A stretch of 64,000 bases of DNA from positions 24,344-88,343 of the forward strand of contig CAVSPF010000005.1 of assembly GCA_963729995.1 (NCBI GenBank), written 5' to 3'. This DNA is from an uncultured Solirubrobacterales bacterium. GTDB lineage: Bacteria; Actinomycetota; Thermoleophilia; Solirubrobacterales; 70-9. Numbering within the stretch: the first letter of the stretch is position 1; each line of letters starts with the position of its first letter. Shown in pieces: positions 34,512-58,751 of this stretch. A model generated the notes under the pieces. That model was not told the origin of the DNA. It searched no databases and saw only the letters and a list, made by a program, of their open reading frames with translations. A program made the position numbers and the translations under genes.

Positions 34512-34553
34512 CCGCACCGCCCCGGCGGCGGTCGACATTGCGGCGCTGAGGAG

Positions 34554-34595
34554 TGCCCCGAGCAGGATTCGAACCTGCGGCCTACTCCTTAGGAG
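34554..34595 (-). pseudogene. 3' half of the resident tRNA-Arg(CCT), from anticodon loop to the discriminator base
   Basis: The reverse complement reads CTCCTAAGGAGTAGGCCGCAGGTTCGAATCCTGCTCGGGGCA. It joins the 5' half at 45106..45147 into a perfect 74-nt cloverleaf. Confidence 0.9.
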
Positions 34596-35235
34596 CGTCA
34601 GTTTGTCAAGTCCTGAACTGGCTTGAAATCCCGAAAGTGGCTTGCCAATGCGGTTTCGAAGAAAGACGCCAACGGCCGCCAGGGCGTCAGAGGGCAGATT
34701 TGTCCCAACCTTTGTTCCAACCCGGAGGCGCGATAATCGAGGCCATTGCCCCGGTAGCTCAGCTGGAAAGAGCGGCCGCCTCCTAAGCGGCAGGTCGCCG
34801 GTTCGAATCCGGCCCGGGGCACTCTTGTATCCATCGCTTTGTAGAACTCGGTCCAATTCCGATCGGGCCCAAAGACGGTGGCTCGGCTCCACCCGCGCCT
34901 CAGACGTAGGTCGAGGCGCAGGTGCTGTTTCGAGTGACTTGACACTTCTCTAAACACCCGACTTAGCACGGATATCCGCACAATCTCTTGGGGCGCCATC
35001 GGGCCGCTGGTTGCGGTCAGCTGCCCAGTTGTGGACTTGGCCACGAGCTGAGGCTCTGGCCAACAGGAGGAAGGTTTTGTCTCTTGTGGAAACCACGCCG
35101 TTTCCCTACAGTTACGGATTCCCGCAGGGGTTGCAGGGACGCAAAGGCCCTACTGGGCCTAGGGAAAGCAACAGGGATAGAAGGACCTCTCAACACAGAG
35201 AGAAGGGATCTGTGCGCAATTCCGCAAGGGATTGG
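34586..35235 (+). repeat. Left copy of the 650-bp perfect inverted repeat (core + arm with tRNA-Arg)
   Basis: It is the reverse complement of 42556..43205. Every block I compared is identical, and the ORF translations spanning the repeat are identical. Confidence 0.9.
34748..34821 (+). tRNA. tRNA-Arg(CCT), element-borne copy 1
   Basis: GCCCCGG TA GCTC AGCTGGAAA GAGC G GCCGC CTCCTAA GCGGC AGGTC GCCGG TTCGAAT CCGGC CCGGGGC A. All four stems pair perfectly. No encoded CCA. Confidence 0.92.
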
Positions 35236-35536
35236 ATCCCAGGCCGGCTAAAGCGAGTAGCCAAGGGTCACGCAAAGAGAGCAACGCGCTCTCGCCGACC
35301 CGAGATCCTTGAAAACCGAATCTTTGCGGCACCTGGCCTCCCCGCCCGCGGGGGCCTTGCTCCTTCCTGCCTGCATCTCGATGCCCGTCGGTTGGCTTTC
35401 GGGCCACAAACAGATGGCACCGGCAGCGAGCCCTGCAAGCCCTTGCGGGGCTCCTTGCGGCCCCTCCCTTCGGGTCGGGGTTCCGGGCTCACTGTCCGGC
35501 GCCCTCACAAGCCAACCGACCCGACCTCCCTACAGC

Positions 35537-35690
35537 TCGACAGGTTGGAACAAAAGGGAGTTGGAACGGATTGCCTATGAAGGTGAGAGAGACAGGCACC
35601 GATCACCACGGCAATGAGCTTCCCGATGGCATCTCCGCCACCACCCGCAAGGCCGACGGCGTCATCGTTGGGTCGTCGCCTGCCACCTGC
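35537..35690 (+). pseudogene. Decayed 5' fragment of a second integrase gene
   Basis: Homologous to the reverse complement of the int 5' region (about 44860..45006). Nearly identical over 35583..35670. A 10-nt length difference and a stop (..LEQKGVGTDCL*) break the frame. Confidence 0.75.
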
Positions 35691-35832
35691 GCAAGAGCCT
35701 TGTCCCCACTGCTTCTGCCTGACGGCCGGCCCGCCGTGGTTGGGTGGTGAGGGACCAGAAAAAGAAGCATCCAGGTCGGCAGCTCTGCTGCCGACTGCCG
35801 CCATTATCGGGGGGGTGTGGACGCCGGCGACG

Positions 35833-35891
35833 CCGGGGTCAAGGCCCTTCGGCCCCTGCGGGGCGGCCCTTCGGGCCGGCCTTGACCCCGG
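35833..35891. other. Compound GC-rich hairpin (14-bp outer stem enclosing two small hairpins)
   Basis: CCGGGGTCAAGGCC ... GGCCTTGACCCCGG with internal GCCCC-TGC-GGGGC and GGCCC-TTC-GGGCC. Confidence 0.6.
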
Positions 35892-36018
35892 CTTGTCGGC
35901 GACCGGGCTATAGATAGGTGGCTCAAGGGTTCGTTCTTGTCGACGCCCACCCGCTATCGAGTCCGCCTTGGGCCACCCCGCAATCTGTTTGCGCGAAGCG
36001 CTGGGGCTAGACAAGGGC

Positions 36019-37023
36019 CTACACAGGGTGTCCCTGGTTAGCACTGCGAAGTCCTGGGCGAGCAGACAAAAAGCGCCGGTAGCGCTCCTTCTGCCAAGGG
36101 CTTGGGTCGGCGTCCACCGCCGCGCGCACCTTGACCGGCAACCCCTCGTCGGTCCGCATCGCCAGCGGCGCCAGAAGGCGCCACGCCGCGAGCGCAGCTT
36201 CCTCACCGCGGTGGGCGAGGGAGTAGAGGACGTGGGCGGCGTAGTCGGCGAGCTGTAGGCCGGCGTCCTCATCTGATCGGGGTGTGCGGAGGCCACCGGA
36301 CAAGATTCGATCAGTCGCGACCCGTTTCTCTTCACCGATCCCGTTTCGCCGGTAGAAAGGGTGATCTGCGGGCCACTCTCCCGGAACGACGAGTTCGGTG
36401 CGGGTGTCGGCGGCGAAAATCGGCCCCACGACGTCGCGTAGGGCTTCGCCGGCCTTGCCGGGGTTCGCGCCCTCCCGCGGATCGACAGCGATGTCGAAGC
36501 TCCAGCTCTCCGCGGGTGGAAGCAGCGTCGTGTAGCCGATTGCGCCTGCCGAGAGCGCCCGGGCCAGAAGCCAGGGCATCAGGACCGCGTACTGAAAGAA
36601 GTCGGGTGCTGAAATGTGACGTTGGTTGTGAAAGCGGGTGCGCAGCCGCGCGATCGCCGCGCTTTTGCTCGGGTCGCCGGCCGCTGTCTTTGAAGCCGCG
36701 GCGGACCGCTCGAACTCGGCGACCTGGGCGGCGCGATGCGCACGCTGCGCCTTGGGGCCGAAGATCTCCGAGTCGCTGATGATGCCAACGAGGCGTAGGT
36801 CCGCGTCGACGAAGAACCCCGCGACCTCGAGCAACTGCCCCTCGTCCATTTCGCCTGCCTTGAGCTCACGGGGCATCTCCCAGTCGTGCCTTTTTTCGGC
36901 GACGAATTCCTCGACGGCGGCGACCTTGGAGTCCGGATAGACGACTGCCGCCACTACGCAGAGTGCGAGCGGAGAGGCGCTCTTGAAGCTGAACTGACCG
37001 GCCTCATCAATGCGGATCTTCAC
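36019..37023 (-). CDS. DUF3800-family protein
   Basis: N-terminal KIRIDEAGQ (the DUF3800 I-D-E-S/A-G motif) and C-terminal GLQLADYAAHVLY motif. GTG start. Confidence 0.65.
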   Translation of the reverse strand: MKIRIDEAGQFSFKSASPLALCVVAAVVYPDSKVAAVEEFVAEKRHDWEMPRELKAGEMDEGQLLEVAGFFVDADLRLVGIISDSEIFGPKAQRAHRAAQVAEFERSAAASKTAAGDPSKSAAIARLRTRFHNQRHISAPDFFQYAVLMPWLLARALSAGAIGYTTLLPPAESWSFDIAVDPREGANPGKAGEALRDVVGPIFAADTRTELVVPGEWPADHPFYRRNGIGEEKRVATDRILSGGLRTPRSDEDAGLQLADYAAHVLYSLAHRGEEAALAAWRLLAPLAMRTDEGLPVKVRAAVDADPSPWQKERYRRFLSARPGLRSANQGHPV

Positions 37024-37096
37024 CAGCCGATGATTACAGCGGACCCTCTGCTGGTGGCACCCGTCGGGCGTCCGTTCATCGTGCCATCTTCAGGAC

Positions 37097-38272
37097 ATGA
37101 GCAACGATCTCTTCGGTCTTGAGCGCTCCGGCTTCGCGGCCCAAGTGATGGAGTTGGCGAGGGCCGAGCGACCCTCGCGGCGCGAGGGCGAGCGACTCTT
37201 CGGTGAGCTGTTGGGCCGGATTGAGACGGCGCCGCCCGATCGCTTCGGCGAACTCTTCGCGTCCCCGGCCGTGCTGCGCTACCTGACCGAACACCTCATT
37301 AACGGTTATCTGCGCTTCCCGCTCGACGTCGGTTGGGCTCCGAAGAGCGCGCGCAGCTTCATCCGCGTGCGCGCGCTCAGCGCGCTCGGGCGCTACCCGA
37401 ACGCCAACGTCACCTGCCATCGCGGCGCCTACCGTATTCACCGCGGACGGCCTTACTTGGTCAGCGAGATCTCGCCCCGCGAGGAGGTGAAGTGGAGCTA
37501 TGGCTCAGAGCTCGCCGACTGGTCGCGCCAGGAGGTGCGAATGGCTACGGCGATCTCCTGCGCGGAGTCGGGCGGCTTCAACGCCTATATCAGCTCGAGC
37601 GCTTTCGACCTCCCCGACGAGGTTCTCGCCTGTGCCGAGCGTCGCACAGATCGCGTCGACTTCGCCCTGGAGTGCGCCGTGTTGGTCAGCGAAGCCTGGA
37701 ATCGATCCGCCATCAGTCGCGGTTACTCGACCCAGACCGCAGCCCCTGTCTTCGAGTTCGCCGACTACCGCGACCACATCGCCGGGGCACGGCGGCTCTT
37801 TGCCGGCTTTCGGGTCTCCAGCCCCCTGCTCCTGCGAACCGCTGGCCACTACCTGAAGGCGTCGATGCTGTGGGCGACTGACGGCTTCCGCGAAGACGCC
37901 CTCGCCAACCTGCTCTTCGCCCTCGAAGGGTGCATGCTGCTCTTTCAAGAGGGCAACGGCGCCCAGACTGAGCGGCTCGACCGTCCCCTGCTCACCGAGA
38001 TCTTCCGGCGCACCTACTTGCATGGAGAGAGCACCATGCACTTCGTCGAAGAGGGCCTCGGCTGGGGAGCGCGCCGCGCGCAGATCATCCATCCCCAACT
38101 CGCAACCGAGAACGGCTGGAAGCCGCTGATCTTCGGCGAGGATTACTACCTCTTCGACAAGATGGTGCGTGCCCTGCTCACCTACCTGATCAGCGGGCGC
38201 AGCTTCGAGGACTACGAGTTGGCCGAAGGATCGTCGCGGTTCGAAGCGGGGTGTTCACCGCCAGACCATTGA
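37097..38272 (+). CDS. Hypothetical protein with an alpha-helical C-terminal region carrying an Rx4H (HEPN-like) motif
   Basis: 391 aa. GWGARRAQIIHPQL fits Rx4-6H. No other motif recognised. Convergent with the four-gene operon. Confidence 0.5.
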   Translation: MSNDLFGLERSGFAAQVMELARAERPSRREGERLFGELLGRIETAPPDRFGELFASPAVLRYLTEHLINGYLRFPLDVGWAPKSARSFIRVRALSALGRYPNANVTCHRGAYRIHRGRPYLVSEISPREEVKWSYGSELADWSRQEVRMATAISCAESGGFNAYISSSAFDLPDEVLACAERRTDRVDFALECAVLVSEAWNRSAISRGYSTQTAAPVFEFADYRDHIAGARRLFAGFRVSSPLLLRTAGHYLKASMLWATDGFREDALANLLFALEGCMLLFQEGNGAQTERLDRPLLTEIFRRTYLHGESTMHFVEEGLGWGARRAQIIHPQLATENGWKPLIFGEDYYLFDKMVRALLTYLISGRSFEDYELAEGSSRFEAGCSPPDH

Positions 38273-38288
38273 CCCGGTAGGCCGACCG

Positions 38289-38954
38289 TCACGCTCGCTC
38301 CCACAGAACTGCCTCTACTTCACCTCCACACCGGCGCCGCTCGACCCGAATCGTCAGATCTGTAATATCGGGAATGCCACGTTCGACCGCTAGCTCAATG
38401 ATGGCGCTTTTGCCGCGGGCTCGCCGACGCTCCTCGAACGGATAGTCAGCCACTGGTAGAAACGTCTTTGATCCACGGGGTTGGGGCTTGTAGAGGGTAC
38501 TTCCTGAGTTAATAGGTGACAGCCGCACACGCTTAAGATGGCGCTGTAGTAGAAGATCAGTATCGACGTGAAGAACATCATGTGACTGATCTCGGTACGC
38601 ATTGGCTCCTAGTAGCGTCTCAAGATGAGGTTCGTCGAGCCAGAAAAATACTCGAGAGTTGAGCACATCAAGCCACTCCTCCAACGTCATATCCGTAAGA
38701 CATTGGCGAAGGGACTTCTCGCGCAATGGGATTTGATCCCGTACGATCGCCTCCCCGTACTCCCCGTGGCACAGGGGAACCGATAAAGGCCTACGCTGCC
38801 GAAGAATCGCCGAGCGTACGGGATCCTTAACCTCGTACAAGTCGATTAGAGCATGGGTAGACAACAGGCCATGCCGCTTGATGCTCTCCCACGAACCCTG
38901 TTGGGCCATGTGGTAAAGCGTCGGGTAATGGCGCACGATGTCAGCAGGATCCAT
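38289..38954 (-). CDS. DarT-like / ART-fold protein (putative ADP-ribosyltransferase; resembles what I recall as DUF7002)
   Basis: Order of motifs: TLYHMAQQGSWESIKRHGLLS (a [FY]H..-type NAD-site His), RVFFWLD, and SAIIELAVERGIP (candidate catalytic Glu). This matches the H / aromatic / E arrangement of DarT. The ATG at 38954 lies 2 nt after the upstream stop. The track uses a TTG at 38963. Confidence 0.5.
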   Translation of the reverse strand: MDPADIVRHYPTLYHMAQQGSWESIKRHGLLSTHALIDLYEVKDPVRSAILRQRRPLSVPLCHGEYGEAIVRDQIPLREKSLRQCLTDMTLEEWLDVLNSRVFFWLDEPHLETLLGANAYRDQSHDVLHVDTDLLLQRHLKRVRLSPINSGSTLYKPQPRGSKTFLPVADYPFEERRRARGKSAIIELAVERGIPDITDLTIRVERRRCGGEVEAVLWERA

Positions 38955-38956
38955 GG

Positions 38957-40564
38957 CTACCAAGCGCGTCGGTCGATCACGCTTCGGACGTGAAAGCGAG
39001 TTGATATCAACGAGACGGGAGCCGCCGCTACACGCTCAACCTCCTCGATAAAGCGAATAGTTTTGGGGGTGAGCTGATCGAAGCGGCGGGCCTGCCGATT
39101 CCTAACGTCGAGATAGTCGACAAAGGTGAGTGCGATGTCGGTTGCGCCATTGATCTCGGAAGCTTTTCGAAGTAGCTCCCAATCGAACTCTCCGACGCGC
39201 CGCTGCTTTTTCGACACCGATCCTTTCTCCACCCGGCGAAGCTCGCCATACGGGATCTTTGAGCGACGGGAAATCTCTCTCCAGTTGGTGCCCTGAGACA
39301 TCCAACCTGAGGTTTTACCTTTAGCCGTAGGGCTCTGTACCCGAATGGGATAAGTACGACAGACGACTATGACTCGGCGCACTCGACTCGGCGAGATGCC
39401 CATCTCAGCGAGACAACCGCTTGCCGTAGTGTCACGGGACGTGACGTGTGGATAGTGGCCGTGGTAATGGCTTAGGCCAGTGCCCTGCGTACCCTCAACC
39501 AGAACGCGGTCTCCGCGAGCGTAGGCATCGACGAGAATCTCATGGGCAGGCGCAATGAATGGCTTTAGTGGAGCGACGTCGCGCGCAAGCCGCATGTCGG
39601 CGCCTCGCTCGAGAATACGACGCGCAGTCGCTGCACCCACGCCTTGCCCAGTTGAGCCGATGTCCTTCACCAAGCCACCCTCAGCCTCGACGTCCGCACC
39701 GCTAATAATCATTGCTTGGGGGTCGATATGAAGTCTTCCGTGCTCCACACCGCAGGCCGCAATCTCGTCAAAGAGGACATCCACATTCAGCACCGCGCCA
39801 GGCCCAATCAGAATCGGCGCCTCGCTAGTAAGCGTTGCCGATGGAAGAAGACGATGGGTAAGCGTTTCGTCGCGTGGCACCTTATGGCCGGCGTTTGGAC
39901 CGCCAACCCGGCAAAGCAAATCGTACTCTGCTCCGATCGCGTAGGCGACATTACCCTTTCCCTCGCTGCCATATTGACCTCCAACGATGACATCCACGAG
40001 GGCACCCGGATCGCGGGCATTTAGACCGAGGTAGCTCGCTGCACGGACCTCGACGTCTTTCTTGGTGTTTTTGCCAGTATCAATGACGATATCGGCGTCG
40101 TGTTCCAACTCCGGAACTCTTCGCTCCGTCGGATCAGCGAGAACCTCGGCATAGCTCGCACGCTCCTTAAATCGTTGCCTTGGCCGCCTCCGATATCGCT
40201 GCTCCAACACCTCCCGCGGCGCGGTGAGGTGGACATGGACGACCTGACTCGGAAATCCATGTCTTAAGGCGTCAATTTGCTCAACAACCCGCGCCGAATC
40301 TATGACCACGACTTTATGTTCGTCCAACGCCGCAATCTGTGGTATGAAGTTCTCGGCCACCCACTTGCCGTTAGTTGCTTTGTCTAAGCGGGTTCCGAAG
40401 CGCTGCATCGCTCCGCGCTCCCGAGGTACTTCGCCGGCTGCCAGCCTTTCAAGGAGAGCGCTCGTCTTTAGATGGACCGCGTCAAAGCGCGCTTCGAGTC
40501 GGCTCGCGAGGGTCGTCTTACCAGCAGAAACAGGCCCCGATAGCACGACCACAACTCGGGCCAT
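38957..40564 (-). CDS. Fusion of a P-loop NMP-kinase-like domain and an adenylosuccinate-synthetase (PurA) homolog
   Basis: N-terminal Walker A LSGPVSAGKTTL. The C-terminal half aligns motif by motif with PurA: GGQYGSEGKGN (PurA GTQWGDEGKGK), GGPNAGHK (GGHNAGHT), IGSTGQGVGAA (IGTTGRGIGPA), EGTQGTGLSHYHGHYPHVTSRDTTASG ([27 protein letters not shown]). Confidence 0.8.
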   Translation of the reverse strand: MARVVVVLSGPVSAGKTTLASRLEARFDAVHLKTSALLERLAAGEVPRERGAMQRFGTRLDKATNGKWVAENFIPQIAALDEHKVVVIDSARVVEQIDALRHGFPSQVVHVHLTAPREVLEQRYRRRPRQRFKERASYAEVLADPTERRVPELEHDADIVIDTGKNTKKDVEVRAASYLGLNARDPGALVDVIVGGQYGSEGKGNVAYAIGAEYDLLCRVGGPNAGHKVPRDETLTHRLLPSATLTSEAPILIGPGAVLNVDVLFDEIAACGVEHGRLHIDPQAMIISGADVEAEGGLVKDIGSTGQGVGAATARRILERGADMRLARDVAPLKPFIAPAHEILVDAYARGDRVLVEGTQGTGLSHYHGHYPHVTSRDTTASGCLAEMGISPSRVRRVIVVCRTYPIRVQSPTAKGKTSGWMSQGTNWREISRRSKIPYGELRRVEKGSVSKKQRRVGEFDWELLRKASEINGATDIALTFVDYLDVRNRQARRFDQLTPKTIRFIEEVERVAAAPVSLISTRFHVRSVIDRRAW

Positions 40565-40568
40565 CGGA

Positions 40569-41948
40569 CTAAACGTCGAGCCTCAGCTCATCGCCGGCAG
40601 GATTAGCAACCTCCTCGATTGGCTTCCCAGGAGGTACGTAGACCTTCACCGGAGTGCCATTTCGCGTAAGCGTTTCCTCGATAATCTCTCGAATGACAAG
40701 CCAACGGCCGCCAGCCTGACCGGCTCCTAGTCGAGGCATGTGAATTGCTGCGCCTTGGTCTTTCGCAAAGTGAGCCACTGTCAGTAACGCGTCGCGGACG
40801 GCGGCATAGCGAATACGGGGCCGTGCGGAGGGTCCGTAGCCATGCTGGCCGACAATCGTGGCTACATATAGGCCGCTACCAACGTCTGTTATATGGGCGT
40901 CGCCTAACCGGAGGCCGCCGTGGTGTGTCTGTGCCCACACTCGGAAGTCATCCTGTGCCTCCGGATACTCCCGCCGTAACGCTCGAGCGAACTCGCCTCC
41001 CCAATTTGGCGTCTTATCATTTACCAAGTGCACAATCACTCGTGCTCCTGACCCGTGCGGCTTAGTGGCGTCACCGTGTACCACAGTAGGCTCGATGTCG
41101 GGAACCGATCGTACTCCGTGAGGCTGCAGTAAGCCGAGCACGCGCGGAAAACGCTGTCCTGGAAATGGCGGCGTACCTACGGCTTGAACCAGGAGATCGC
41201 GAAGGCGATCAGACCAGTCTTCCCGGTCCTTTGCAGTAAAGCCCACAGCAGTGCACTCCGAGAGCACCGAACCGGCGGGCCGCCGTTCACCCCGTGAGAT
41301 GGGCGGCCTCCATGCTCGCGATGGAACCGTATAGTCAATTCGAAATGGCGACGCAGCCGACAGTGGATCGACATGGGCCGCGGCAAACATCGCGACAGGG
41401 TAGGTCGCTAGCTTCGTCGCTCGACGCAAAAGTACCTCCGTAGAGACACCATACGCCTCACGCAGTTCCAGGAGATGCTCTATCTGCGACGGGCCCTCCC
41501 GTAACGCGGGAAGGGTGTCCGCCGGCATCAGAAACTCAGCAGCGATTATGTTGCAGAGAAGCTCAAGCTGCCAACCGTCTGGCGGGTCGGCCGCTGGATT
41601 ATTGCGATAGCGAGAGACTCTCGCGACATCTGGGAAGAGGGTATGCGCCAACTCATGGGCGAGGGAAAAGCGGACGCGATACTTGGGCCGCGTCGGGTTG
41701 TACTCAATTACGAGTTTCCGACCGATCGGAAGCGTCCGCGCATCCAGTAGTTCGTCCTTGGGGACCACCTCAATCCCCAGAATCTCCGCCAACTCGAGAG
41801 GATCAAACGGCGGACCTTCCCAGCCTTTCTCGACGGCACCAAAGACAACGTCTTGTGCTGCCTTTTCGGCAGCTTCAATGGGATCACGATCCCGCGCGAA
41901 ATCGAGGACGGATTCATTGGTCCAATAAGCCGACATCTCGAAGATCAC
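40569..41948 (-). CDS. Fusion of an ImmA/IrrE-type zinc metallopeptidase and a macrodomain (DarG/TARG1-like)
   Basis: HEXXH in RFSLAHELAHTLF with ImmA-like context. The C-terminus has GDATKP..RVIVHLVNDKTPNWGGEFARAL..YPEA and IHMPRLGAGQAGGRW, which are macrodomain motifs. GGAGG lies 5 nt before the GTG at 41948. The track uses a TTG at 41960. Confidence 0.75.
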   Translation of the reverse strand: MIFEMSAYWTNESVLDFARDRDPIEAAEKAAQDVVFGAVEKGWEGPPFDPLELAEILGIEVVPKDELLDARTLPIGRKLVIEYNPTRPKYRVRFSLAHELAHTLFPDVARVSRYRNNPAADPPDGWQLELLCNIIAAEFLMPADTLPALREGPSQIEHLLELREAYGVSTEVLLRRATKLATYPVAMFAAAHVDPLSAASPFRIDYTVPSRAWRPPISRGERRPAGSVLSECTAVGFTAKDREDWSDRLRDLLVQAVGTPPFPGQRFPRVLGLLQPHGVRSVPDIEPTVVHGDATKPHGSGARVIVHLVNDKTPNWGGEFARALRREYPEAQDDFRVWAQTHHGGLRLGDAHITDVGSGLYVATIVGQHGYGPSARPRIRYAAVRDALLTVAHFAKDQGAAIHMPRLGAGQAGGRWLVIREIIEETLTRNGTPVKVYVPPGKPIEEVANPAGDELRLDV

Positions 41949-41965
41949 TCTAGCCTCCAAAGAGG

Positions 41966-42319
41966 CTATATCGATGGAGCGGAGTGGCTCAGACCCTGCA
42001 AGCTGCCAAGGAGGAGCCAGGCAAACTCCATTGTCGCCCGCAAATGGCCTCTACAGCCATCCCACGCTGGCTCAGAGGGCAATCCATCGAGCAAGGCGAC
42101 CACGTTGTCCAGCCCAAGCTTTAACGCCTGCCGGTCCTTGTTGTGCGATCGCTCAACTACAGCCGCCGTTAGAAGGAACAATTCCTTGGCCGAGGGAATC
42201 TCGCCTCGGGCGACGCGGCTCGCAATTCGCCCCGAAGCCCGCGCCACATGCTCGGTTACGGTCGCTTCGGACGGCGTCGTCATGAAAGCGAGACGTTCGT
42301 TGGGAACAAGTGAGGACAC
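41966..42319 (-). CDS. Small hypothetical protein, first gene of the operon
   Basis: 117-aa ORF (GTG start, no clear SD). Its stop lies 17 nt before the next start. It occupies the position an ImmR-type partner would take, but I see no HTH motif. Confidence 0.4.
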   Translation of the reverse strand: MSSLVPNERLAFMTTPSEATVTEHVARASGRIASRVARGEIPSAKELFLLTAAVVERSHNKDRQALKLGLDNVVALLDGLPSEPAWDGCRGHLRATMEFAWLLLGSLQGLSHSAPSI

Positions 42320-42483
42320 CCGTGCAGGGCTTTTGTCTCAGCCGCAAGCATGCAGCGGGGCCACAAAGGATTCGAGTGCCATTCCGGGAACTGCAATCAA
42401 CGGCGCATCCTGAGATCAGCTCAGGCTGAGTTCCAATCGAGAAGTTCCCCCGTGTTACCTGAGCCCGGTGAGCAACACGGTGC

Positions 42484-42512
42484 TTGACAGAGTGTGTGCA
42501 TTTCGGTACTAT
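42484..42512 (+). promoter_or_regulatory. Near-consensus sigma70/SigA-type promoter pointing into the right inverted repeat
   Basis: TTGACA (42484..42489), a 17-nt spacer, then TACTAT (42507..42512, fits TAnnnT). It lies in the AT-richer region divergent from the operon. Confidence 0.5.
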
Positions 42513-42555
42513 CAGTTTCCATTGCACTGTCACTATTCACTCCGTTGCCACTCAC

Positions 42556-43205
42556 CCAATCCCTTGCGGAATTGCGCACAGATCCCTTCTCTCTGTGTTG
42601 AGAGGTCCTTCTATCCCTGTTGCTTTCCCTAGGCCCAGTAGGGCCTTTGCGTCCCTGCAACCCCTGCGGGAATCCGTAACTGTAGGGAAACGGCGTGGTT
42701 TCCACAAGAGACAAAACCTTCCTCCTGTTGGCCAGAGCCTCAGCTCGTGGCCAAGTCCACAACTGGGCAGCTGACCGCAACCAGCGGCCCGATGGCGCCC
42801 CAAGAGATTGTGCGGATATCCGTGCTAAGTCGGGTGTTTAGAGAAGTGTCAAGTCACTCGAAACAGCACCTGCGCCTCGACCTACGTCTGAGGCGCGGGT
42901 GGAGCCGAGCCACCGTCTTTGGGCCCGATCGGAATTGGACCGAGTTCTACAAAGCGATGGATACAAGAGTGCCCCGGGCCGGATTCGAACCGGCGACCTG
43001 CCGCTTAGGAGGCGGCCGCTCTTTCCAGCTGAGCTACCGGGGCAATGGCCTCGATTATCGCGCCTCCGGGTTGGAACAAAGGTTGGGACAAATCTGCCCT
43101 CTGACGCCCTGGCGGCCGTTGGCGTCTTTCTTCGAAACCGCATTGGCAAGCCACTTTCGGGATTTCAAGCCAGTTCAGGACTTGACAAACTGACGCTCCT
43201 AAGGA
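42556..43205 (-). repeat. Right copy of the 650-bp perfect inverted repeat
   Basis: Reverse complement of 34586..35235 (coordinates sum to 77791). Ends with the core CTCCTAAGGA at 43196..43205. Confidence 0.9.
42970..43043 (-). tRNA. tRNA-Arg(CCT), element-borne copy 2
   Basis: Identical to the copy at 34748..34821, in inverted orientation. Confidence 0.92.
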
Positions 43206-43317
43206 ACCCTTCGTAGCGCGACAGCGGGCGAACGGTTACCTCCCTCAAAGCCACTCGTAGAGCCGAATTAGGCTGATCGAGAGTGGAGCAGATCCGCCGC
43301 TTGTTCGACAGGTTGGA
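43196..43317 (+). repeat. Left copy of the 122-bp perfect inverted repeat (core + integrase-proximal arm + first 35 nt of int)
   Basis: Checked base by base against the reverse complement of 44994..45115 and found identical. With the adjacent 650-bp repeat it forms an intact attP-like junction in inverted orientation. Confidence 0.9.
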
Positions 43318-44993
43318 CCGACTGGAGAGTCGCCAGCGCGAGCGCTCGGAGAGCGATCAGCACCCGGCCAAGAACCTATGGCTACGGACGCCGAAACGGG
43401 CGACGGCGCCGCTGAAAGGCAGCCTGATGCTGGGGGGATTAGGCCGGAACAGCGGGATGCCGCTCTGGCTCTCGAGCCCTGCGTCTTCGGGCTTGACGCT
43501 CGCCCTCTTTAGCGGCACGAGCCCGCCGCCGACTCTGGGCCTCCCGCTGAGGGCCCTCTCGCTCGTCGGGCTTGAATGGATTCTGTTCGACTCCGAGCCG
43601 AGCCCGCCGACACTCGTCCTCGATCTCAAACGGCGGCTGGCCGAAGTAGCGGGCGATCAGGTGGCTGTAGTAACGCTGCAGGGTCTCGATGTCGTGTGCC
43701 GCCCACCCGGCAAGCAAGTGCAGGTTCATTCCGTGGGGTCCCATCACCAGGGTTGAGTGAAGGGCCATCGAAATTGCCGTATGGCGACAGTCGTAAAAGG
43801 TCATTCTGTGGAGCCCGACGGGTGCGTCCGGCGCTTGCGCCGCGGCGGTCCGGGCCGGAATCCACACTCTTTTGACCCACTGGTTGTAGTTGTTCTTTGT
43901 CCACGCCAGCGGTACCGGTTCGCCCCCATCCTCTGGCGTCACCCATATAGGCCCTTCGTCACCAAGGGCCTGAAAGACCAAACCATTCTGCGGCTGAGGC
44001 CCGAAGCGATCCTCCAGCGCTTCGCGGTAGACGGCGATGCGATCCCAGGCGTTGGGGAGAACGAGGGCGACGTGCGCCCCCGTCTTCAAGCCTGGGATGA
44101 CTTCCGGATCGCCCTGGCGCGCCCGCTGCAGCTCGACCGTCCCGATCCCGGCGCTTGGGTCTGGCGGGGCAAACAGATTTTCCCAGGCGGCCGACAGACG
44201 CCATTCGGATGGTCGCGAGGCGATGGTGTAGCCCATCGCTGCCACTAAGGCGGCATCGCGGAGCGGCAACAGATCATCACGCGCTGGACGAGCCAGCACC
44301 GCCTCGATGATCCGCTCCAAGCCGATCGCATCAGCGGCGTAGGCGAGGCGCGATTTGCTCTGCTTGGGAAGCTGGATCAGTCCCGACAGCTCCACGGTAA
44401 GAGCGTTTGGGTGCCGGCGCCTTCCCCAGCGCATGACGGCTCGAAACAGTTTCAGGATTTCTCGTCGCTTTGATTGCTTCAAACCGTCGGCGATCAGTTC
44501 ATCCTGAAAGCGGACAAGAGTCGCGGGGTCCGCTGAAATTCGATCAAGTCGTGTTCGTCCGATTGGTCGCGGCTCGATCTCCTTCGCCCAAAATTTGGCC
44601 GACCTCTCGTGGTATTCCTGGCTCACTTCCGGTCCGTGGTTCACGATCCACTCGCGGAGAAGATCGTTCGGAGTCATGGCGCAGGCCGGGTCGACTCTGA
44701 CCACCGCGCCGTCGACCTTGACCGCTTCGCGGGCTTCCGCGAGGAAGGTGACCGCCGCCTCCAACGCTCGATCCAACGAGCCCAGCTTGCGCTCCGAGAA
44801 CGAACGGCTCGGATGACGCCTGATCCCGTTGTGGTCCTCCTCCCACCAGCGACTCCGGTAGCCGACGATGACGCCGTCGGCCTTGCGGGTGGTGGCGGAA
44901 ATGCCATCGGGAAGCTCATTGCCGTGGTGATCGGTGCCTGTCTCTCTCACCTCCAAAGCCATCCGTTCCAGCCCCTTTTGTCCCAACCTCTGT

Positions 44994-45147
<154 letters not shown>

Positions 45148-45272
45148 AGGCAACGCAGATTATTCCGCTGCCGGGTCGGGGGGCTTGGGCGGCGGCGTGC
45201 TGAGGAGCGAGGGCGGTGCGCGCCACCCCTCCGTTCCCCCCGCGCCCAATTTCAGCCTTTACAGTCATACAC

Positions 45273-46715
45273 ATGCAGGCCAATTCCACGGGTGCGCCGG
45301 CACGGCACGGCAGGCGGACGAAGATCATCGCCACGGTCGGGCCCGCGAGCTGGGACGTCGATCTCCTCGACCAGCTGATCGACGCCGGCGCCGACGTCCT
45401 CCGCCTCAACTTCTCCCATGCCGACCGCGACCGCCATGCGCGGACGGTCGAGTCGATTCGCGCAGCCGCCGAGCGGTCCGGGCGCGAGGTTGCGGTGCTC
45501 GGCGACCTGCCGGGGCCGAAGCTGCGGATCGGCGAGCTGCGCGACGACGTCGCCGAGCTGGAGACCGGGATGCACGTGAAGCTGACGCCGCAGGCGGTCG
45601 CGGGCGACGCGACGACGATCCCGGTCGACTGGCCGGGCGTCACCTCCCTGCACGAGAACGAGCTGGTCTTCCTGGCCGACGGGGCAATCCGCCTGCGGGT
45701 GCGGGCGCCCGAGGACGGTGGCGTCGACTGCGAGGTCGAGGTGGGGGGGACGCTGTCCTCTCACAAGGGGATGAACGTTCCGGGCATCGCCGGGTTGCCC
45801 ACCACCGACCACGACCTCAACTGGGTCGAGTTTGCAGTGGAGCAGGGGATCGACCTGCTGGCCGTCTCGTTCGTCTCCACGGCGGCGGACCTCGAGCCGG
45901 TGGCCGAGCGGCTGCGCGCGCTGGGCTCCGACATCCCGCTGATCGCCAAGATCGAGAAGCAGCAGGCGGCCGAGAACGCCGACGAGATCGTCCGTGCGGC
46001 GACCGGCGGGATCATGGTCGCCCGCGGCGATCTCGGGATCGAGCTGCCGCTGGCGCAGGTGCCGGTGGTGCAGAAGCGATTGATCCGCACCGCGGGCAAA
46101 CGGTCGAAGCCGGTGATCACCGCCACCCAGATGCTGGCCTCGATGGTCACCGAGCGACGCCCGACCCGCGCCGAGGTGACCGACGTCGCCAACGCGATCT
46201 ATGACGGCACCGACGCGGTGATGCTCTCCGAGGAGACCGCGGTCGGCCGCCACCCGATCGAGTCGGTGCGGGTGATGGATCAGATCGCCCGCGCGACCGA
46301 GCCGGACCTCCCGTATGCGGAGTGGCTGTTCACCCGCACCGACCAGGCGTCCCATGACGTCGCGGACTCGGTCGCCCAGGGCGCGGTCGGGGCGGTTTAC
46401 CGGCTGGGCCTGGCGGCGCTGGTCGTGCCGACCACCAGCGGGCGCACCGCGCGCCTCGTCTCCGCCCATCGTCCCGAGGTGCCGGTGCTGGCGATCTCGC
46501 CCCGGATCGAGACCGTGCGCCGCCTCAATCTCCTCTTCGGCGTGACCGCCGCCCTCAGCGAGCAGGTGACCGAGGTCCATGGCCTGCTCGACGACTGCGC
46601 CGCCCTCGCCGCCCGCCACGGCGTGGCGAAATCCGGCGACCTGATCGCGATCACCGCCGGCCTCCCCGAGCAGGAGCTGGGCACCAACCTCTTCGAGGTC
46701 CACCGCGTGCCCTGA
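45273..46715 (+). CDS. pyk: Pyruvate kinase
   Basis: RRTKIIATVGPAS, LRLNFSHA, GDLPGPKLR and MVARGDLGIE motifs. Confidence 0.9.
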   Translation: MQANSTGAPARHGRRTKIIATVGPASWDVDLLDQLIDAGADVLRLNFSHADRDRHARTVESIRAAAERSGREVAVLGDLPGPKLRIGELRDDVAELETGMHVKLTPQAVAGDATTIPVDWPGVTSLHENELVFLADGAIRLRVRAPEDGGVDCEVEVGGTLSSHKGMNVPGIAGLPTTDHDLNWVEFAVEQGIDLLAVSFVSTAADLEPVAERLRALGSDIPLIAKIEKQQAAENADEIVRAATGGIMVARGDLGIELPLAQVPVVQKRLIRTAGKRSKPVITATQMLASMVTERRPTRAEVTDVANAIYDGTDAVMLSEETAVGRHPIESVRVMDQIARATEPDLPYAEWLFTRTDQASHDVADSVAQGAVGAVYRLGLAALVVPTTSGRTARLVSAHRPEVPVLAISPRIETVRRLNLLFGVTAALSEQVTEVHGLLDDCAALAARHGVAKSGDLIAITAGLPEQELGTNLFEVHRVP

Positions 46716-47600: not shown

Positions 47601-49283
47601 ATGATGTTTTCCAGTCGGCCCAGGAAGCTCGAGCGCTGGGCGTTCCCGGCATTCGTGGTCGTGGCCCTGGCGATGGCCGCGCCGGCATCCGCCGCGCGCG
47701 ATGCCTACGTCGCCAACGCCGGCAGCGGCACCGTCACGGTCATCGACACGGGCTCCAACGCAGCGGTGGGGACGATCCCGGTGGGGGCCGGCCCCCACAA
47801 CGTCGCGATCACCCCCGACGGGCGGTTCGCCTACGTCACCAACGAAACCGACGGCACCGTCGCGGTCATCTCCACCGCAACCAACGCCGTGGTCGGGGCG
47901 CCGATCGCGATCGGCGCGGGCTCCAAGCCGCGCGGCATCGCCATCTCCCCCGACGGGCAGACCGCCTGGGTCGCCGACTTCGGCAACGGCACGGCCACCG
48001 TCATTGCCACCGCGACCAACTCGGTCGTCGGCGCGCCGGTCAAAGTCGGGGGAGAACCTGACGGCATCGCCATCTCCCCCGACGGCGCCGCCGCCCTGGT
48101 CGCCCAGAAGGGTGGCGACGTCTCGATCGTCAATACCGCCAGCCGCGCCGTGACCGGCACGGTCACCGACCCGCTGGGGCCCTCGCAGATCGCGGTCGGC
48201 CCGCGCGGCGCGCGGGCCTATGTCACCAACAGCAAATCCGGAGCCAACTCGGTGACCGCGTTCAATCCCGCCAACGGGCAGGCCGGCGCGCCGATCGCGG
48301 TCGGCGCCGAACCGTCCGGCATCGCGATCGGGCCGAGCGGCAGGTTCGCCTACGCCGCCGGCTCCGGCGACGGCACGCTGACCCCGATCGACACCGCCAC
48401 GAACGCCACCGGCACGGTCATCACGGGCTTCAACGGCCCCCAGGGCGTCGCGGTCAACCCGAGCGGCTTGCAGGCCTACGTCGCCAACAAGACCGGCGGC
48501 ACCGTCACCGCGCTCAATACGGCCACCAACGTCCTCTCCGCTTCGATCCCGGCCGGGCAAGAACCGACCGGCATCGCGATCGTCCCCGACCAGTCGCCGG
48601 TCGCCTCCTTCCTGGTCACACCGCAGAAGCGGATCGCGGGGCGCAAGCTCACCTTCCACGGTGGCGCCTCCAGGGACCCCGACGGCACGATCGCCACCTA
48701 CGCCTGGGCATTCGGCGACGGCAAGCGCGCGTTGGGCCCGCAGGCGACCCGCACGCACACCTACCGGTCGCCCGGCACCTACACCGTCACCCTCACGGTC
48801 ACCGACAACGAAGGTTGCTCGACCGCACTCGTCTACACCGGGCAGACCGCCTCCTGCAGCGGCTCCACCCTGGCGCGCGCCACCGGCACCATCGTCGTCG
48901 TCGACAACAGGGGGCCCGAACTCAACCTCGCCGGTGGCACGAGGCAGCGCCTCCGCGGGCGGCTCAACGTCTTCGCCCAGTGCCCGCAGGAGGCATGCAC
49001 GGTCAGCGCCAGCGGCGTGGCCGTGATGACCACTCTGCGAGGGAGCGGGCCGGTGTCCCGGCAGCGGCGGATCGGCTCGGCGAGTGCGTCGCTCGCGGCG
49101 GGCCAGTGGGGCAGGCTGAGCTTGCGCGTGGGGCCCGGCGCCCGGCGCGCGATCCTGCGGGCGCTGCGCAGCGGCGGTGCGGCGAACGCCCAGGTGGCCG
49201 TCATCGCCGCTGACTCGAGCGGCCTCAAGACCCGCCGCACGCGCTACATCAAGCTGGTCAGGCCCAGGGCCCACCATCCTTGA
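47601..49283 (+). CDS. Secreted YVTN-type beta-propeller repeat protein with a PKD domain
   Basis: AGGAG RBS and a signal peptide. About eight ~40-aa repeats (AYVAN/AYVTN..GTV.VI.TATN.VVG.I.VG..P.GIAISPDG). The PKD-like segment is FGDG...HTYRSPGTYTVTLTVTDNEG. Confidence 0.8.
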   Translation: MMFSSRPRKLERWAFPAFVVVALAMAAPASAARDAYVANAGSGTVTVIDTGSNAAVGTIPVGAGPHNVAITPDGRFAYVTNETDGTVAVISTATNAVVGAPIAIGAGSKPRGIAISPDGQTAWVADFGNGTATVIATATNSVVGAPVKVGGEPDGIAISPDGAAALVAQKGGDVSIVNTASRAVTGTVTDPLGPSQIAVGPRGARAYVTNSKSGANSVTAFNPANGQAGAPIAVGAEPSGIAIGPSGRFAYAAGSGDGTLTPIDTATNATGTVITGFNGPQGVAVNPSGLQAYVANKTGGTVTALNTATNVLSASIPAGQEPTGIAIVPDQSPVASFLVTPQKRIAGRKLTFHGGASRDPDGTIATYAWAFGDGKRALGPQATRTHTYRSPGTYTVTLTVTDNEGCSTALVYTGQTASCSGSTLARATGTIVVVDNRGPELNLAGGTRQRLRGRLNVFAQCPQEACTVSASGVAVMTTLRGSGPVSRQRRIGSASASLAAGQWGRLSLRVGPGARRAILRALRSGGAANAQVAVIAADSSGLKTRRTRYIKLVRPRAHHP

Positions 49284-50079: not shown

Positions 50080-50112
50080 GAGGGGACGAGACGACCCTGA
50101 GGGGACGCGAGC

Positions 50113-51204: not shown

Positions 51205-51272
51205 CGTCGCTTGCGATGGCGACGACTTCGACGGCGATGGAGATATGCCTGTGAACTAACGACTCAGGTCAC
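50116..51272 (-). mobile_element. IS630-family insertion sequence (1157 bp) with a TA target-site duplication
   Basis: Perfect 18-bp terminal match CTAGTGACCTGAGTCGTT (50113..50130) with its reverse complement (51258..51275). The flanking TA dinucleotides at 50114-15 and 51273-74 are typical of IS630/Tc1. Confidence 0.85.
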
Positions 51273-58386: not shown

Positions 58387-58751
58387 ATGCGCCCGAGGCT
58401 ACACTCAGCGCAGAGGCCATCAAGTCGGCCAAACCGCAAGTCGTCTGGTGTGGCCTCGGAGTGCCCAAGCAGGAGCTGTGGATGCGGCGCCACGCGCCGA
58501 GCCTCGCCCCAGCGCTCGTGGTCGGGGTGGGCGCAGCCTTCGACTTTATTGCAGGCAACAAGCACCGCGCGCCGAAGGCGATGCAGAGGCTCGGCCTCGA
58601 GTGGCTCTACCGTCTCGCGGCGGAGCCCCGCCGGCTGAGTGGCCGCTACCTGCGGACGAACAGCGAGTTTCTCGCCCTTCTCGGCTGGGAGCTTCTGCAG
58701 CACCGGGGTGGCACGTGATTCGAGAAGCGGTGACCCCCGACCGAGCCTCAA
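58387..58751 (+). repeat. 365-bp direct repeat, copy 2 (an orphan TagA 3' third, 58387..58718, fused upstream to unrelated low-GC DNA)
   Basis: See 56650..57014. The 126-aa track ORF 58338..58718 is only the duplicated C-terminus with a fortuitous start. Confidence 0.85.

What the first reader, a model, noticed from the sequence alone, without database searches (positions are those of the whole stretch)
34586..43205. Perfect 650-bp inverted repeats, each containing a tRNA gene, bracket the 7.3-kb cargo segment
- 34586..35235 and 42556..43205 are reverse complements. Coordinates sum to 77791, and I found no mismatch in the blocks compared.
- Each repeat starts at the recombination core and contains tRNA-Arg(CCT) plus 414 bp of non-coding DNA.
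- Identity stops abruptly at ..GGGATTGG.
- Perfect identity implies a very recent duplication or ongoing gene conversion.
- The enclosed segment 35236..42555 could invert by homologous recombination, or by the integrase acting on the inverted cores.
- An inverted duplication of an attachment-site arm is not what simple integration or tandem integration produces.
Basis: seen in the sequence. Interest (0 to 1): 0.7.

Follow-up and report, generated by a model that had tools for sequence, protein, structure and literature searches.

The report
Island with two mirrored attachment sites
The 650-bp mirrored repeats are real: they are two copies of the docking region of a 10.5-kb mobile island that splits the host's arginine tRNA gene and brings its own replacement, and related islands show that the repeats are kept alike over time and that the cargo between them has flipped.

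Summary
Observation confirmed: 34586-35235 and 42556-43205 are 650 nt, 100% complementary, each with a tRNA-Arg(CCT). The repeat is part of a larger structure. A second perfect inverted repeat (43196-43317 / 44994-45115, 122 nt) flanks a 507-aa tyrosine recombinase and overlaps the first by a 10-nt core, CTCCTAAGGA. That core occurs three times. Deleting 34596-45115 rebuilds a host tRNA-Arg(CCT), so a 10.5-kb island sits in its anticodon loop. Neither junction restores the tRNA, and the island supplies its own. The island therefore holds two inverted copies of one ~762-bp attachment region: one split by integration, one intact inside. A 130-bp integrase remnant (35537-35671) suggests the inner copy comes from a second, head-to-head element. 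Seven related sequences from Solirubrobacterales MAGs and metagenomes show the layout in whole or part, two complete end to end. Arms are 96-100% alike within six of these elements (91% over the 76 nt visible in a seventh) but 72-94% between elements, so the duplication is old and homogenised. Cargo ends are flipped in one of four relatives. Whether the integrase or homologous recombination does this is unresolved. The tRNA-replacing strategy is known from actinophages; the mirrored attachment region appears undescribed. No reads were available for this genome.

The parts
34554..34595 (-). 3' half of the split host tRNA-Arg(CCT), tRNA positions 33-74. The last 10 nt are core copy 1.
   Evidence: 100% match to the rebuilt tRNA. 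ARAGORN finds a 75-nt tRNA only after 34596-45115 is removed.
34586..35235 (.). IR1 left arm: core copy 1 (34586-34595), a 152-nt spacer, the island's own tRNA, then 413 nt with no recognised feature.
   Evidence: 650 nt, 100% complementary to 42556-43205.
34701..34721 (-). Pair of GTTGGRACA motifs, candidate arm-type integrase-binding sites, about 106-135 nt from the core.
   Evidence: 9 motif hits in the window against 0.41 expected; 7 lie in the island: three pairs at matching distances on both sides of the core, plus one at 35544 in the integrase remnant. The same pairs occur in the single-copy relative L009.
34748..34822 (+). Island-borne tRNA-Arg(CCT), copy 1. It is 84% identical to the host tRNA.
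   Evidence: ARAGORN; Rfam tRNA at 70.7 bits; pairwise alignment.
35236..35536 (.). About 300 nt of unique DNA between IR1 and the integrase remnant.
   Evidence: No match in any related locus.
35537..35671 (+). 13-mer TCGACAGGTTGGA, an arm-type motif, and the first ~30 codons of an integrase gene (95% identical to 44862-44961). Read as the remnant of a second element copy.
   Evidence: Inverted pair I3. 13-mer found at 35537, 43305 and 44994. The alignment is colinear from the 13-mer onward only.
36019..38272 (.). Two ORFs of unknown function: 36019-37023 (-), 334 aa, and 37097-38272 (+), 391 aa.
   Evidence: No hit in Pfam, NCBIfam, PADLOC, PHROGs or PDB sequences.
38289..41960 (-). Cargo operon at 58% G+C. 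DUF7002 protein (38289-38963). Kinase fused to an adenylosuccinate-synthetase/PurZ-like domain, 535 aa (38957-40564). M78 peptidase fused to a macro domain, 463 aa (40569-41960).
   Evidence: Pfam, NCBIfam, PADLOC (CapP, RmrA, DarG-like) and PHROGs hits. G+C profile.
42556..43205 (.). IR1 right arm. It holds the island tRNA-Arg(CCT) copy 2 (42969-43043, minus strand) and a motif pair at 43070-43090.
43196..43205 (+). Core copy 2, the internal one, inverted relative to copies 1 and 3. It has the tRNA arm on one side and the integrase arm on the other, so it is an intact inverted attP-like junction.
   Evidence: Exactly three CTCCTAAGG sites in the window. Junction sequences compared.
43196..43317 (.). 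IR2 left arm: core plus 112 nt of the integrase-side arm. It ends at TCGACAGGTTGGA, just inside the first arm-type motif, so this copy lacks that side's motif pair.
   Evidence: 122 nt, 100% complementary to 44994-45115; boundary and motifs.
43439..44962 (-). Integrase, 507 aa, a divergent tyrosine recombinase.
   Evidence: AlphaFold2 model, pLDDT 82. Foldseek top hits are Tn1549 Int, Cre/Tre, XerH and lambda Int, probability 1.0. PHROG phrog_1 integrase, E 5.6e-16. Invariant R250, K293, R393, H394, H423, Y432. No Pfam, NCBIfam or PDB-sequence hit.
44979..44999 (-). Arm-type motif pair just upstream of the integrase start codon.
44994..45115 (.). IR2 right arm, including core copy 3 (45106-45115).
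45106..45147 (-). 5' half of the split host tRNA-Arg(CCT), tRNA positions 1-42.
   Evidence: 100% match; rebuilt tRNA.

Best explanation
**What it is.** The 650-bp repeats are the tRNA-bearing arm of the attachment region of a 10,520-bp integrative island (34596-45115). The island is driven by a divergent tyrosine recombinase and sits in the anticodon loop of the host tRNA-Arg(CCT).

**Integration.** Recombination uses a core of only 8-10 nt (CTCCTAAG[GA]). Neither junction rebuilds the tRNA, and the island supplies its own tRNA-Arg(CCT).

**Two attachment regions.** The island holds two inverted copies of one ~762-bp region (tRNA arm, core, 112 nt of the integrase arm).
- One copy was split by integration and now forms the island's two ends.
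- The other lies intact between the integrase gene and the cargo.

**Origin (inferred).** The inner copy plus the cargo are what remains of a second, head-to-head copy of the element that lost its integrase. A 130-bp remnant of that gene survives.

**Maintenance (partly shown).** Recombination between the two copies keeps them nearly identical by gene conversion and occasionally flips the cargo. Homologous recombination is the simpler agent. The integrase acting on the inverted cores would give the same product.

**Shown:** anatomy, split tRNA, recombinase fold, recurrence in relatives, co-evolution of the arms, flipped cargo ends between relatives.

**Inferred:** recombinase activity, the agent of inversion and homogenisation, the origin from a second copy.
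For: **Anatomy**
- IR1 is 650 nt and IR2 is 122 nt, both 100%, overlapping by the 10-nt core.
- There are exactly three cores; the middle one is inverted.
- In-silico excision rebuilds a 75-nt tRNA-Arg(CCT). No tRNA is detected at either junction.
- The only tRNAs in the window are the island's two.
- Island G+C is 58-66% against about 70% in the flanks.

**Recombinase**
- Tyrosine-recombinase fold, conserved catalytic-type residues and a PHROG integrase hit.
- Arm-type motif pairs lie symmetrically on both sides of the core.

**Second copy**
- The integrase remnant and the internal arm share the 13-mer TCGACAGGTTGGA as a direct repeat.
- Together they rebuild one contiguous arm-integrase region.

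**Recurrence**
- Complete copies of the layout: L091 (8,067 bp) and L093 (9,320 bp). Excision in silico rebuilds the tRNA in both.
- Partial views: L001, L037, L036, L089 and L092.
- These come from different samples, different assemblers and apparently both long- and short-read data.

**Co-evolution of the arms**
- Within elements: 96-100% (IR1 100, 100, 99.6, 99.4, 98.9; IR2 100, 100, 99.2, 99.2, 96.7, 95.9; 91% over the 76 nt visible in L089).
- Between elements: 72-94% for the short arm, 80% for the outer long arm, and unalignable for the inner long arm.
- IR1 length differs between elements: 378, 478, 547 and 650 nt.

**Inversion**
- Cargo ends in L037 are reversed relative to L001, L091 and L093.

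**Single-copy relatives**
- L009 and L020 have one attachment region, a split tRNA and their own tRNA.
Against: - No reads were available, so neither both orientations nor excised circles were seen for this genome.
- The 100% identity could be slightly inflated by assembly polishing.
- The integrase remnant occurs only in the window, so the second-copy origin rests on one locus. It also needs an unobserved inverted 13-mer in the ancestor.
- Nothing separates integrase-driven from RecA-driven inversion.
- The integrase segment has the same orientation in all eight elements. If the integrase acted freely on inverted cores, that segment should flip too.
- The split tRNA is on the opposite strand relative to the conserved left flank compared with about 30 relatives. 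The model does not explain this.
Confidence: 0.7

Rival explanations
1. The mirrored second attachment site is a selected design, not a relic. It would let the integrase invert or swap the tRNA-flanked cargo module between islands (a natural form of recombinase-mediated cassette exchange). Alternatively it would work like the yeast 2-micron plasmid's repeats after excision, or toggle which core carries the integrase-side arm sites.
For: - The layout persists across eight diverged elements with the same junction.
- Integrase modules that are 92-96% identical in DNA carry unrelated cargo: hypothetical genes, CHAT+HNH, CBASS, DUF7002+PurZ-like.
- The module boundaries coincide with the cores.
- One cargo flip is seen among four relatives.
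Against: - No replication gene or any other gene is shared between cargos.
- The short arms decay in some elements (96.7, 95.9, 91%), as expected for neutral repeats under length-dependent gene conversion.
- The internal site lacks one pair of arm-type motifs.
- The integrase segment was never found flipped.
Confidence: 0.17
2. The repeats result from a very recent duplication in this genome only.
For: The arms are 100% identical over 650 and 122 nt.
Against: - The same duplication, with the same end point at GGTTGGA, occurs in every relative inspected at that junction (L001, L037, L036, L089); the relatives' integrase genes are 87-90% identical in DNA to the window's.
- Their arms differ from the window's by 6-28%.
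Confidence: 0.03
3. The repeats are an assembly artefact: a fold-back chimera, a collapsed repeat, or a mis-join at a repeat.
For: - No reads could be checked.
- The orientation of the tRNA relative to the left flank is atypical, and the right flank (pyruvate kinase) is not syntenic with relatives.
- Contig L092 ends with a hairpin-like path.
Against: - Unique, different DNA lies outside and between the arms, which is not a fold-back.
- Excision in silico gives a perfect tRNA.
- The same layout is present in seven other assemblies from JGI, ENA and Logan.
- An independent Logan contig, 100% identical to the cargo, stops 30 nt into the arm, as expected for a true two-context repeat.
Confidence: 0.04
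4. Two separate mobile units with terminal inverted repeats lie side by side and move like transposons. One would be a 1.9-kb integrase unit (43196-45115), the other an 8.6-kb non-autonomous cargo unit (34586-43205). A variant of this idea: the mirrored copies pair in a single-stranded circle to form the attachment site, as in CTX phage.
For: - Each unit is bounded by inverted cores and perfect inverted repeats.
- Short contigs of about 1.8-2.2 kb hold just the integrase unit.
Against: - All three junctions are the legitimate products of one conservative attP x attB exchange plus an intact attP.
- Single-copy relatives integrate as ordinary circles would.
- A unit bounded by inverted cores cannot arise from integration of a circle.
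- The short contigs are explained by assembly graphs breaking at repeats.
- No rolling-circle or relaxase gene is present.
Confidence: 0.05

Closest known systems
tRNA-dependent lysogeny of actinobacteriophages (Fionnbharth and Cluster K4/L phages; Guerrero-Bustamante and Hatfull 2024, PMC10865867)
   Same: - A tyrosine integrase targets a site inside a host tRNA gene.
- The common core is only about 10 bp, so no functional tRNA is rebuilt.
[quoted passage not shown]
- Pairs of arm-type sites flank the core, and the host is an actinobacterium.
   Different: - This is a small island of 8-10.5 kb with no phage genes. It has no relative in phage, plasmid or viral collections.
- The integrase family is unrelated at sequence level.
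- The attachment region with its tRNA is duplicated in inverted orientation, which that paper's abstract and discussion do not describe.
- Whether the island tRNA is essential was not tested.
Yeast 2-micron plasmid: Flp recombinase with FRT sites inside two 599-bp perfect inverted repeats (own knowledge)
   Same: - After excision the island would be a circle with two long, near-perfect inverted repeats.
- Each repeat would contain the target of an element-encoded tyrosine recombinase.
- The repeats would divide the circle into two unique segments that can flip.
   Different: - No replication origin or replication gene is recognisable.
- No excised circle was observed.
- One repeat copy lacks part of the site.
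- Copy-number amplification is pure speculation here.
Invertible-segment systems with tyrosine recombinases (R64 shufflon/Rci, fimS/FimB-FimE) (own knowledge)
   Same: A tyrosine recombinase gene lies next to DNA segments bounded by inverted copies of its crossover site.
   Different: - Those systems use short repeats (9-31 bp) and switch gene expression.
- Here the repeats are 122 and 650 bp, are copies of an integration site, and no expression switch is evident.
Concerted evolution of long inverted repeats by gene conversion (plastid inverted repeats, tufA/tufB) (own knowledge)
   Same: - Arms are far more alike within a genome than between genomes.
- Repeat boundaries shift: 378, 478, 547 and 650 nt.
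- Longer repeats are more uniform than short ones.
   Different: This occurs inside a small mobile island and involves its recombination site.
Engineered cassette exchange between inverted attP sites (e.g. MiMIC in Drosophila, PMC4379497; own knowledge of the design)
   Same: A cassette is bracketed by two inverted copies of an integrase attachment site.
   Different: That is an artificial system using a serine integrase. No exchange has been demonstrated here.

Membership tests
Tyrosine recombinase / integrase superfamily | Two-domain core-binding plus catalytic fold | tested here: met
   AlphaFold2 model with pLDDT 82.4. Foldseek against the PDB gives Tn1549 Int, Cre/Tre, XerH and lambda Int at probability 1.0, E 6e-6 to 4e-4.
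Tyrosine recombinase / integrase superfamily | Catalytic R-K-H-R-H/W-Y residues | tested here: inconclusive
   Invariant R250 (RPSEW), K293 (GLKTG), R393-H394 (CRHT), H423 and Y432 (RYYxH) in 33 homologues. The first histidine position appears to be Y390. Residues were assigned by motif, not by structural superposition.
Tyrosine recombinase / integrase superfamily | Match to curated sequence models (Pfam PF00589, NCBIfam) | tested here: not met
   No Pfam hit even at E<=10, no NCBIfam hit, and no PDB sequence hit with a 33-sequence profile. PHROG phrog_1 'integrase' does match at E 5.6e-16.
tRNA-dependent lysogeny type integration | Short (~10 bp) common core inside a host tRNA gene | tested here: met
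   The core is 10 nt in the window, 9 in L091, 8 in L093, and 10-11 in L009 and L020.
tRNA-dependent lysogeny type integration | No functional tRNA rebuilt at either junction | tested here: met
   ARAGORN and Rfam find no tRNA at 34554-34595 or 45106-45147. A tRNA appears only after in-silico excision.
tRNA-dependent lysogeny type integration | [quoted passage not shown] | tested here: met
   tRNA-Arg(CCT) at 34748-34822 and 42969-43043, with the same anticodon.
tRNA-dependent lysogeny type integration | Element tRNA is required for survival of the host | not testable with these tools
   Needs genetics. It is also unknown whether the genome has another tRNA-Arg(CCT) outside the window.
tRNA-dependent lysogeny type integration | Element is a temperate phage | tested here: not met
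   No structural or lysis genes by PHROGs. No relative of the integrase in the phage, plasmid or viral-contig collections.
2-micron-like flip-flop circle | Two long inverted repeats, each holding the recombinase target | tested here: met
   Two copies of the 762-bp a'-core-b region, one split by integration. The inner copy lacks one arm-motif pair.
2-micron-like flip-flop circle | Both inversion isomers exist | tested here: inconclusive
   Cargo is flipped in L037 relative to L001, L091 and L093. This is between genomes, not within one population. The integrase segment was never seen flipped.
2-micron-like flip-flop circle | Autonomous replication and amplification | tested here: not met
   No replication gene is recognised, and no gene is shared between cargos.
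Transposon or IS with terminal inverted repeats | Transposase and target-site duplication unrelated to a recombination core | tested here: not met
   The only mobility gene is a tyrosine recombinase. The 'duplication' is the tRNA anticodon-loop core shared with the internal site.
Folded single-strand attachment site (CTX phage, integron attC) | Single-stranded replicative or transfer form | not testable with these tools
   No rolling-circle replication or relaxase gene was found. The arms are 1.7 and 7.3 kb apart rather than adjacent.

The most novel reading that the evidence does not exclude
The inverted second attachment site is a maintained functional feature of this island lineage. It would turn the tRNA-flanked cargo into a module that the integrase can flip or exchange between islands, a natural counterpart of recombinase-mediated cassette exchange. 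That would explain why near-identical integrase modules carry unrelated defence-type cargo.
Probability: 0.17. Interest if true: 0.8.

Novelty: new variant of a known kind. Interest (0 to 1): 0.6.

Why it matters
- **Beyond phages.** It extends the 'split the tRNA and bring your own' integration strategy, described in 2024 for actinophages, to small non-phage islands in uncultured soil Actinomycetota. Their recombinase family is invisible to Pfam and NCBIfam.
- **Missed by annotation.** Islands of this kind would be missed by tools that look for a rebuilt tRNA plus a displaced fragment.
- **The mirrored attachment region.** It gives a natural case of long inverted repeats inside a mobile element that co-evolve, shift their boundaries and flip their contents. 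It could be used to test whether a lambda-like integrase can drive inversion or cassette exchange.
- **Cargo.** The cargos are defence-type (CBASS, a CHAT protease, a kinase-PurZ-like fusion with a macro-domain protease). The lineage is therefore a compact vehicle for such genes.

Tried and rejected
- **Exact-pattern scan.** A 22-nt piece of the integrase-side arm found nothing in metagenome contigs. The protein-guided scan then found only distant relatives without the repeats.
- **Other collections.** Viral contigs, the phage collection and the plasmid collection hold no relative.
- **Integrase annotation.** Pfam, NCBIfam, PADLOC and PDB sequence searches gave nothing for the integrase. The fold had to be predicted.
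- **IR1 content.** Rfam found nothing in the 413 nt after the tRNA, and the promoter and terminator scans were at chance level.
- **tRNA orientation.** I fetched pyruvate-kinase neighbourhoods in three relatives to explain the odd tRNA orientation. They share only the kinase gene with the window, so this stays unresolved.
- **Source contig.** Look-ups by exact protein (483-aa P0360 and the 507-aa integrase) failed. Cluster listings show it is a 99,984-bp NCBI/ENA record.
- **Models rejected.**
  - Wrong-orientation attP x attL/attR exchange would give a'-core-a or b'-core-b junctions, which are absent.
  - Integration into the island's own tRNA is ruled out because both copies are intact.
  - A fold-back palindrome is ruled out because the arms are not adjacent.

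Full report
**1. The observation**

- The two arms, 34586-35235 and 42556-43205, are 650 nt and 100% complementary (0 mismatches).
- Each holds a tRNA-Arg(CCT), at 34748-34822 (+) and 42969-43043 (-). Rfam scores both at 70.7 bits.
- Identity stops at GGGATTGG.
- The window is about 70% G+C, while 34-45 kb drops to 58-66%.

**2. The larger structure**

- A whole-window repeat search shows a second perfect inverted repeat, 43196-43317 / 44994-45115, 122 nt.
- This second repeat flanks a 507-aa ORF (43439-44962, minus strand). It overlaps the first repeat by 10 nt, CTCCTAAGGA.
- That core occurs exactly three times: at 34586-95 and 45106-15 in one orientation and at 43196-205 in the other.
- Left of the first core lies the 3' half of a tRNA-Arg(CCT). 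Right of the third lies its 5' half.
- Removing 34596-45115 gives a perfect 75-nt tRNA-Arg(CCT) on the minus strand.
- So a 10,520-bp island is inserted in the anticodon loop.
- Neither junction is a tRNA. The island carries its own tRNA-Arg(CCT), 84% identical to the host's.
- The internal core has the tRNA arm on one side and the integrase arm on the other. It is therefore an intact attP-type junction in inverted orientation.
- Read as a circle, the island has two mirrored copies of one 762-bp attachment region. Integration split one of them.

**3. The recombinase**

- The ORF has no Pfam, NCBIfam or PADLOC hit. A 33-sequence profile finds nothing in PDB sequences.
- Several lines nevertheless identify it as a tyrosine recombinase:
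  - It carries RPSEW, GLKTG, CRHT, GWxxH and RYYxH motifs, invariant in homologues.
  - It matches PHROG phrog_1 'integrase' at E 5.6e-16.
  - Its AlphaFold2 model (pLDDT 82) matches Tn1549 Int, Cre, XerH and lambda Int at probability 1.0.
- The family is small: 120 clusters at E<=1e-3 among 1.84 billion representatives.
- It is found in Solirubrobacterales and other Thermoleophilia MAGs.
- Pairs of GTTGGRACA motifs sit about 106-135 nt from the core on both arms. There are 9 hits against 0.41 expected. The same pairs occur in a single-copy relative.
- These are probably arm-type binding sites, as in lambda-like integrases.
- The internal copy of the integrase arm ends at GGTTGGA, inside the first motif. 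It therefore lacks that pair.

**4. Relatives**

The window's left flank is syntenic in about 30 related loci. In those loci the same tRNA-Arg(CCT) is followed by a family integrase, so this is a hot spot.

The family uses two strategies:
- Some members rebuild the tRNA through 44-48-nt identity blocks (L013, L024, L064).
- Others split it with an 8-11-nt core and carry their own tRNA. L020 and L009 have a single attachment region, and excision in silico rebuilds the tRNA in L020.

The mirrored layout is confined to integrases at least 86% identical to the window's. In the table, IR1 is the long repeat and IR2 the short one.

| Locus | Source | IR1 | IR2 | Notes |
|---|---|---|---|---|
| L091 | JGI, 319-kb contig | 378 nt, 100% | 122 nt, 95.9% | complete, 8,067 bp, tRNA rebuilt in silico |
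| L093 | ENA | 547 nt, 99.6% | 122 nt, 100% | complete, 9,320 bp, CBASS cargo |
| L001 | 1.25-Mb MAG contig | 99.4% (cut by locus end) | 99.2% | partial |
| L037 | JGI | 98.9% (cut by contig end) | 99.2% | partial |
| L036 | JGI | not visible | 96.7% | partial |
| L089 | Logan | not visible | 90.8% over 76 nt | partial |
| L092 | JGI | not visible | 96.6% | partial |

The junction between the spacer after the integrase and the inverted arm is the same in every relative inspected at sequence level (L001, L037, L036, L089). The duplication is therefore ancestral to the clade.

**5. The arms co-evolve**

- Short arms are 97-100% alike within the four elements compared (95.9-100% across the six with a full 122-nt repeat; table above), but 72-94% alike between elements.
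- The outer 330 nt of the long arm is 80% alike between the window and L001 or L037.
- The inner part of the long arm cannot be aligned between them (45%), although the two copies in the window are identical.
- IR1 length differs between elements: 378, 478, 547 and 650 nt.
- This is the signature of continuing homogenisation with moving boundaries, not of a recent event.
- Short arms are less uniform than long ones. That fits length-dependent gene conversion better than strict selection.

**6. The enclosed segment flips**

- L001, L091 and L093 share homologous cargo ends in one orientation relative to the integrase.
- In L037 both ends are exchanged and reversed.
- The middle of the cargo is unrelated in every element, and no cargo protein of the window occurs in any of the 89 loci held at that point.
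- The integrase segment has the same orientation in all eight elements.

**7. Origin**

- A segment at 35537-35671 repeats the 13-mer TCGACAGGTTGGA, an arm motif and the first ~30 integrase codons at 95% identity.
- The alignment shows homology starting exactly at the 13-mer. The internal arm copy ends with the same 13-mer in direct orientation.
- Thus 35537-43317 is one circular permutation of a second element copy: integrase stub, cargo, tRNA arm, core, integrase arm.
- It lies head to head inside a minimal first copy.
- How it got there is not resolved. Options include insertion at, or inversion between, inverted 13-mers.

**8. Artefact check**

- Unique DNA lies outside and between the arms, and excision in silico is exact.
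- Seven other assemblies show the layout.
- An independent Logan contig (L090, run ERR12035932) is 100% identical to 35639-42585. It begins 30 nt inside the right arm, as expected where a k=31 graph branches at a true repeat (the value of k is my inference).
- Reads themselves could not be examined.

**9. Comparison with known systems**

- The integration strategy matches tRNA-dependent lysogeny of actinophages: a ~10-bp core, a tRNA that is not rebuilt, a phage tRNA that complements, and arm-site pairs (PMC10865867).
- Unlike those phages, this is a small non-phage island.
- The mirrored attachment region has its nearest analogue in the 2-micron plasmid's FRT-bearing inverted repeats (own knowledge). 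No replication function is present here.
- Four literature searches found no description of an integrative island with an inverted attP copy.

**10. Open points**

- In the window the split tRNA lies on the strand opposite to that in all relatives with the same left flank.
- The right flank is pyruvate kinase, whose neighbourhood differs in three relatives.
- The tRNA plus 60 nt upstream is bracketed by a ~15-nt direct repeat. It also has the same ATAATC box as the island-borne tRNAs.
- I could not explain this.

**Verdict.** This is a new variant of a known kind. Interest 0.6.

Noticed in passing
window 34512-34553 and 45148-45215; L001, L010, L012, L022 around 9780-9850: The split host tRNA is on the minus strand, with its 3' end 42 nt after the left-flank gene's stop. 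In about 30 related loci the same tRNA is on the plus strand, 10-27 nt after that stop. The tRNA plus 60 nt upstream is bracketed by a ~15-nt direct repeat, CTCCTCAGC(A)CGCCGC. It also has an ATAATC box like every island-borne tRNA. The 'host' tRNA here may itself be a relocated or domesticated copy.
   Followed up: partly
window 45216-46715; L086-L088: The right flank is pyruvate kinase. In three relatives (83-86% DNA identity) its neighbours are conserved among themselves (P450, ALO, Ala-racemase-like, ECH, DUF4442) but absent from the window. The window genome is therefore rearranged at this point.
   Followed up: partly
window 38289-41960 (-): A cargo operon of a DUF7002 protein, a 535-aa kinase fused to an adenylosuccinate-synthetase/PurZ-like domain, and a 463-aa M78 peptidase (CapP/IrrE-like) fused to a macro (DarG-like) domain. 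The kinase-synthetase fusion, at about 535 aa, has thousands of homologues in actinobacterial MAGs. It looks like a defence or nucleotide-modifying module.
   Followed up: partly
L093 12367-16900; L001 17136-20913; contig of P0004: Sister islands carry other defence-type cargo: CBASS (two SMODS, S_4TM, HORMA, Cap8, AAA) in L093, a CHAT protease plus an HNH nuclease in L001, and a Shedu SduA_C protein on the P0004 contig.
   Followed up: no
L003 7925/8856/9809; L021 3272/4448/9811; L006, L008, L020, L032: Arrays of two or three direct copies of the tRNA 5' half plus core, 0.9-5 kb apart, lie upstream of the integrase. This suggests serial integrations or miniature elements that carry the 5' half.
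   Followed up: no
L013, L024, L064, L026, L031, L041, L057-L062: The same integrase family also targets tRNA-Ile(GAT), Arg(ACG), Arg(TCT), Arg(CCG) and Gly(CCC). Some members rebuild the tRNA through 44-48-nt identity blocks. Both the rebuilding and the replacing strategies therefore exist in one family.
   Followed up: partly
L092 3386-3533: This short-read contig leaves the distal arm through the core into 26 nt of the reverse complement of the tRNA 5' half, a hairpin-like path. It is probably a graph-traversal artefact at the inverted repeat. The sister sample's 319-kb contig (L091) shows the normal junction.
   Followed up: no
window 50111-51277: An IS630/DDE_3-type transposase gene (50113-51204, minus strand) is bounded by 32-nt inverted repeats at 50111-50142 and 51246-51277.
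   Followed up: no
window 56650-56949 and 58387-58686: A perfect 300-nt direct repeat, 1737 nt apart, lies in a low-G+C stretch (59-60%).
   Followed up: no
window 47601-49283: A gene for a beta-propeller (YNCE/NHL-like) plus PKD-domain protein, with internal 126-294-nt periodic repeats.
   Followed up: no
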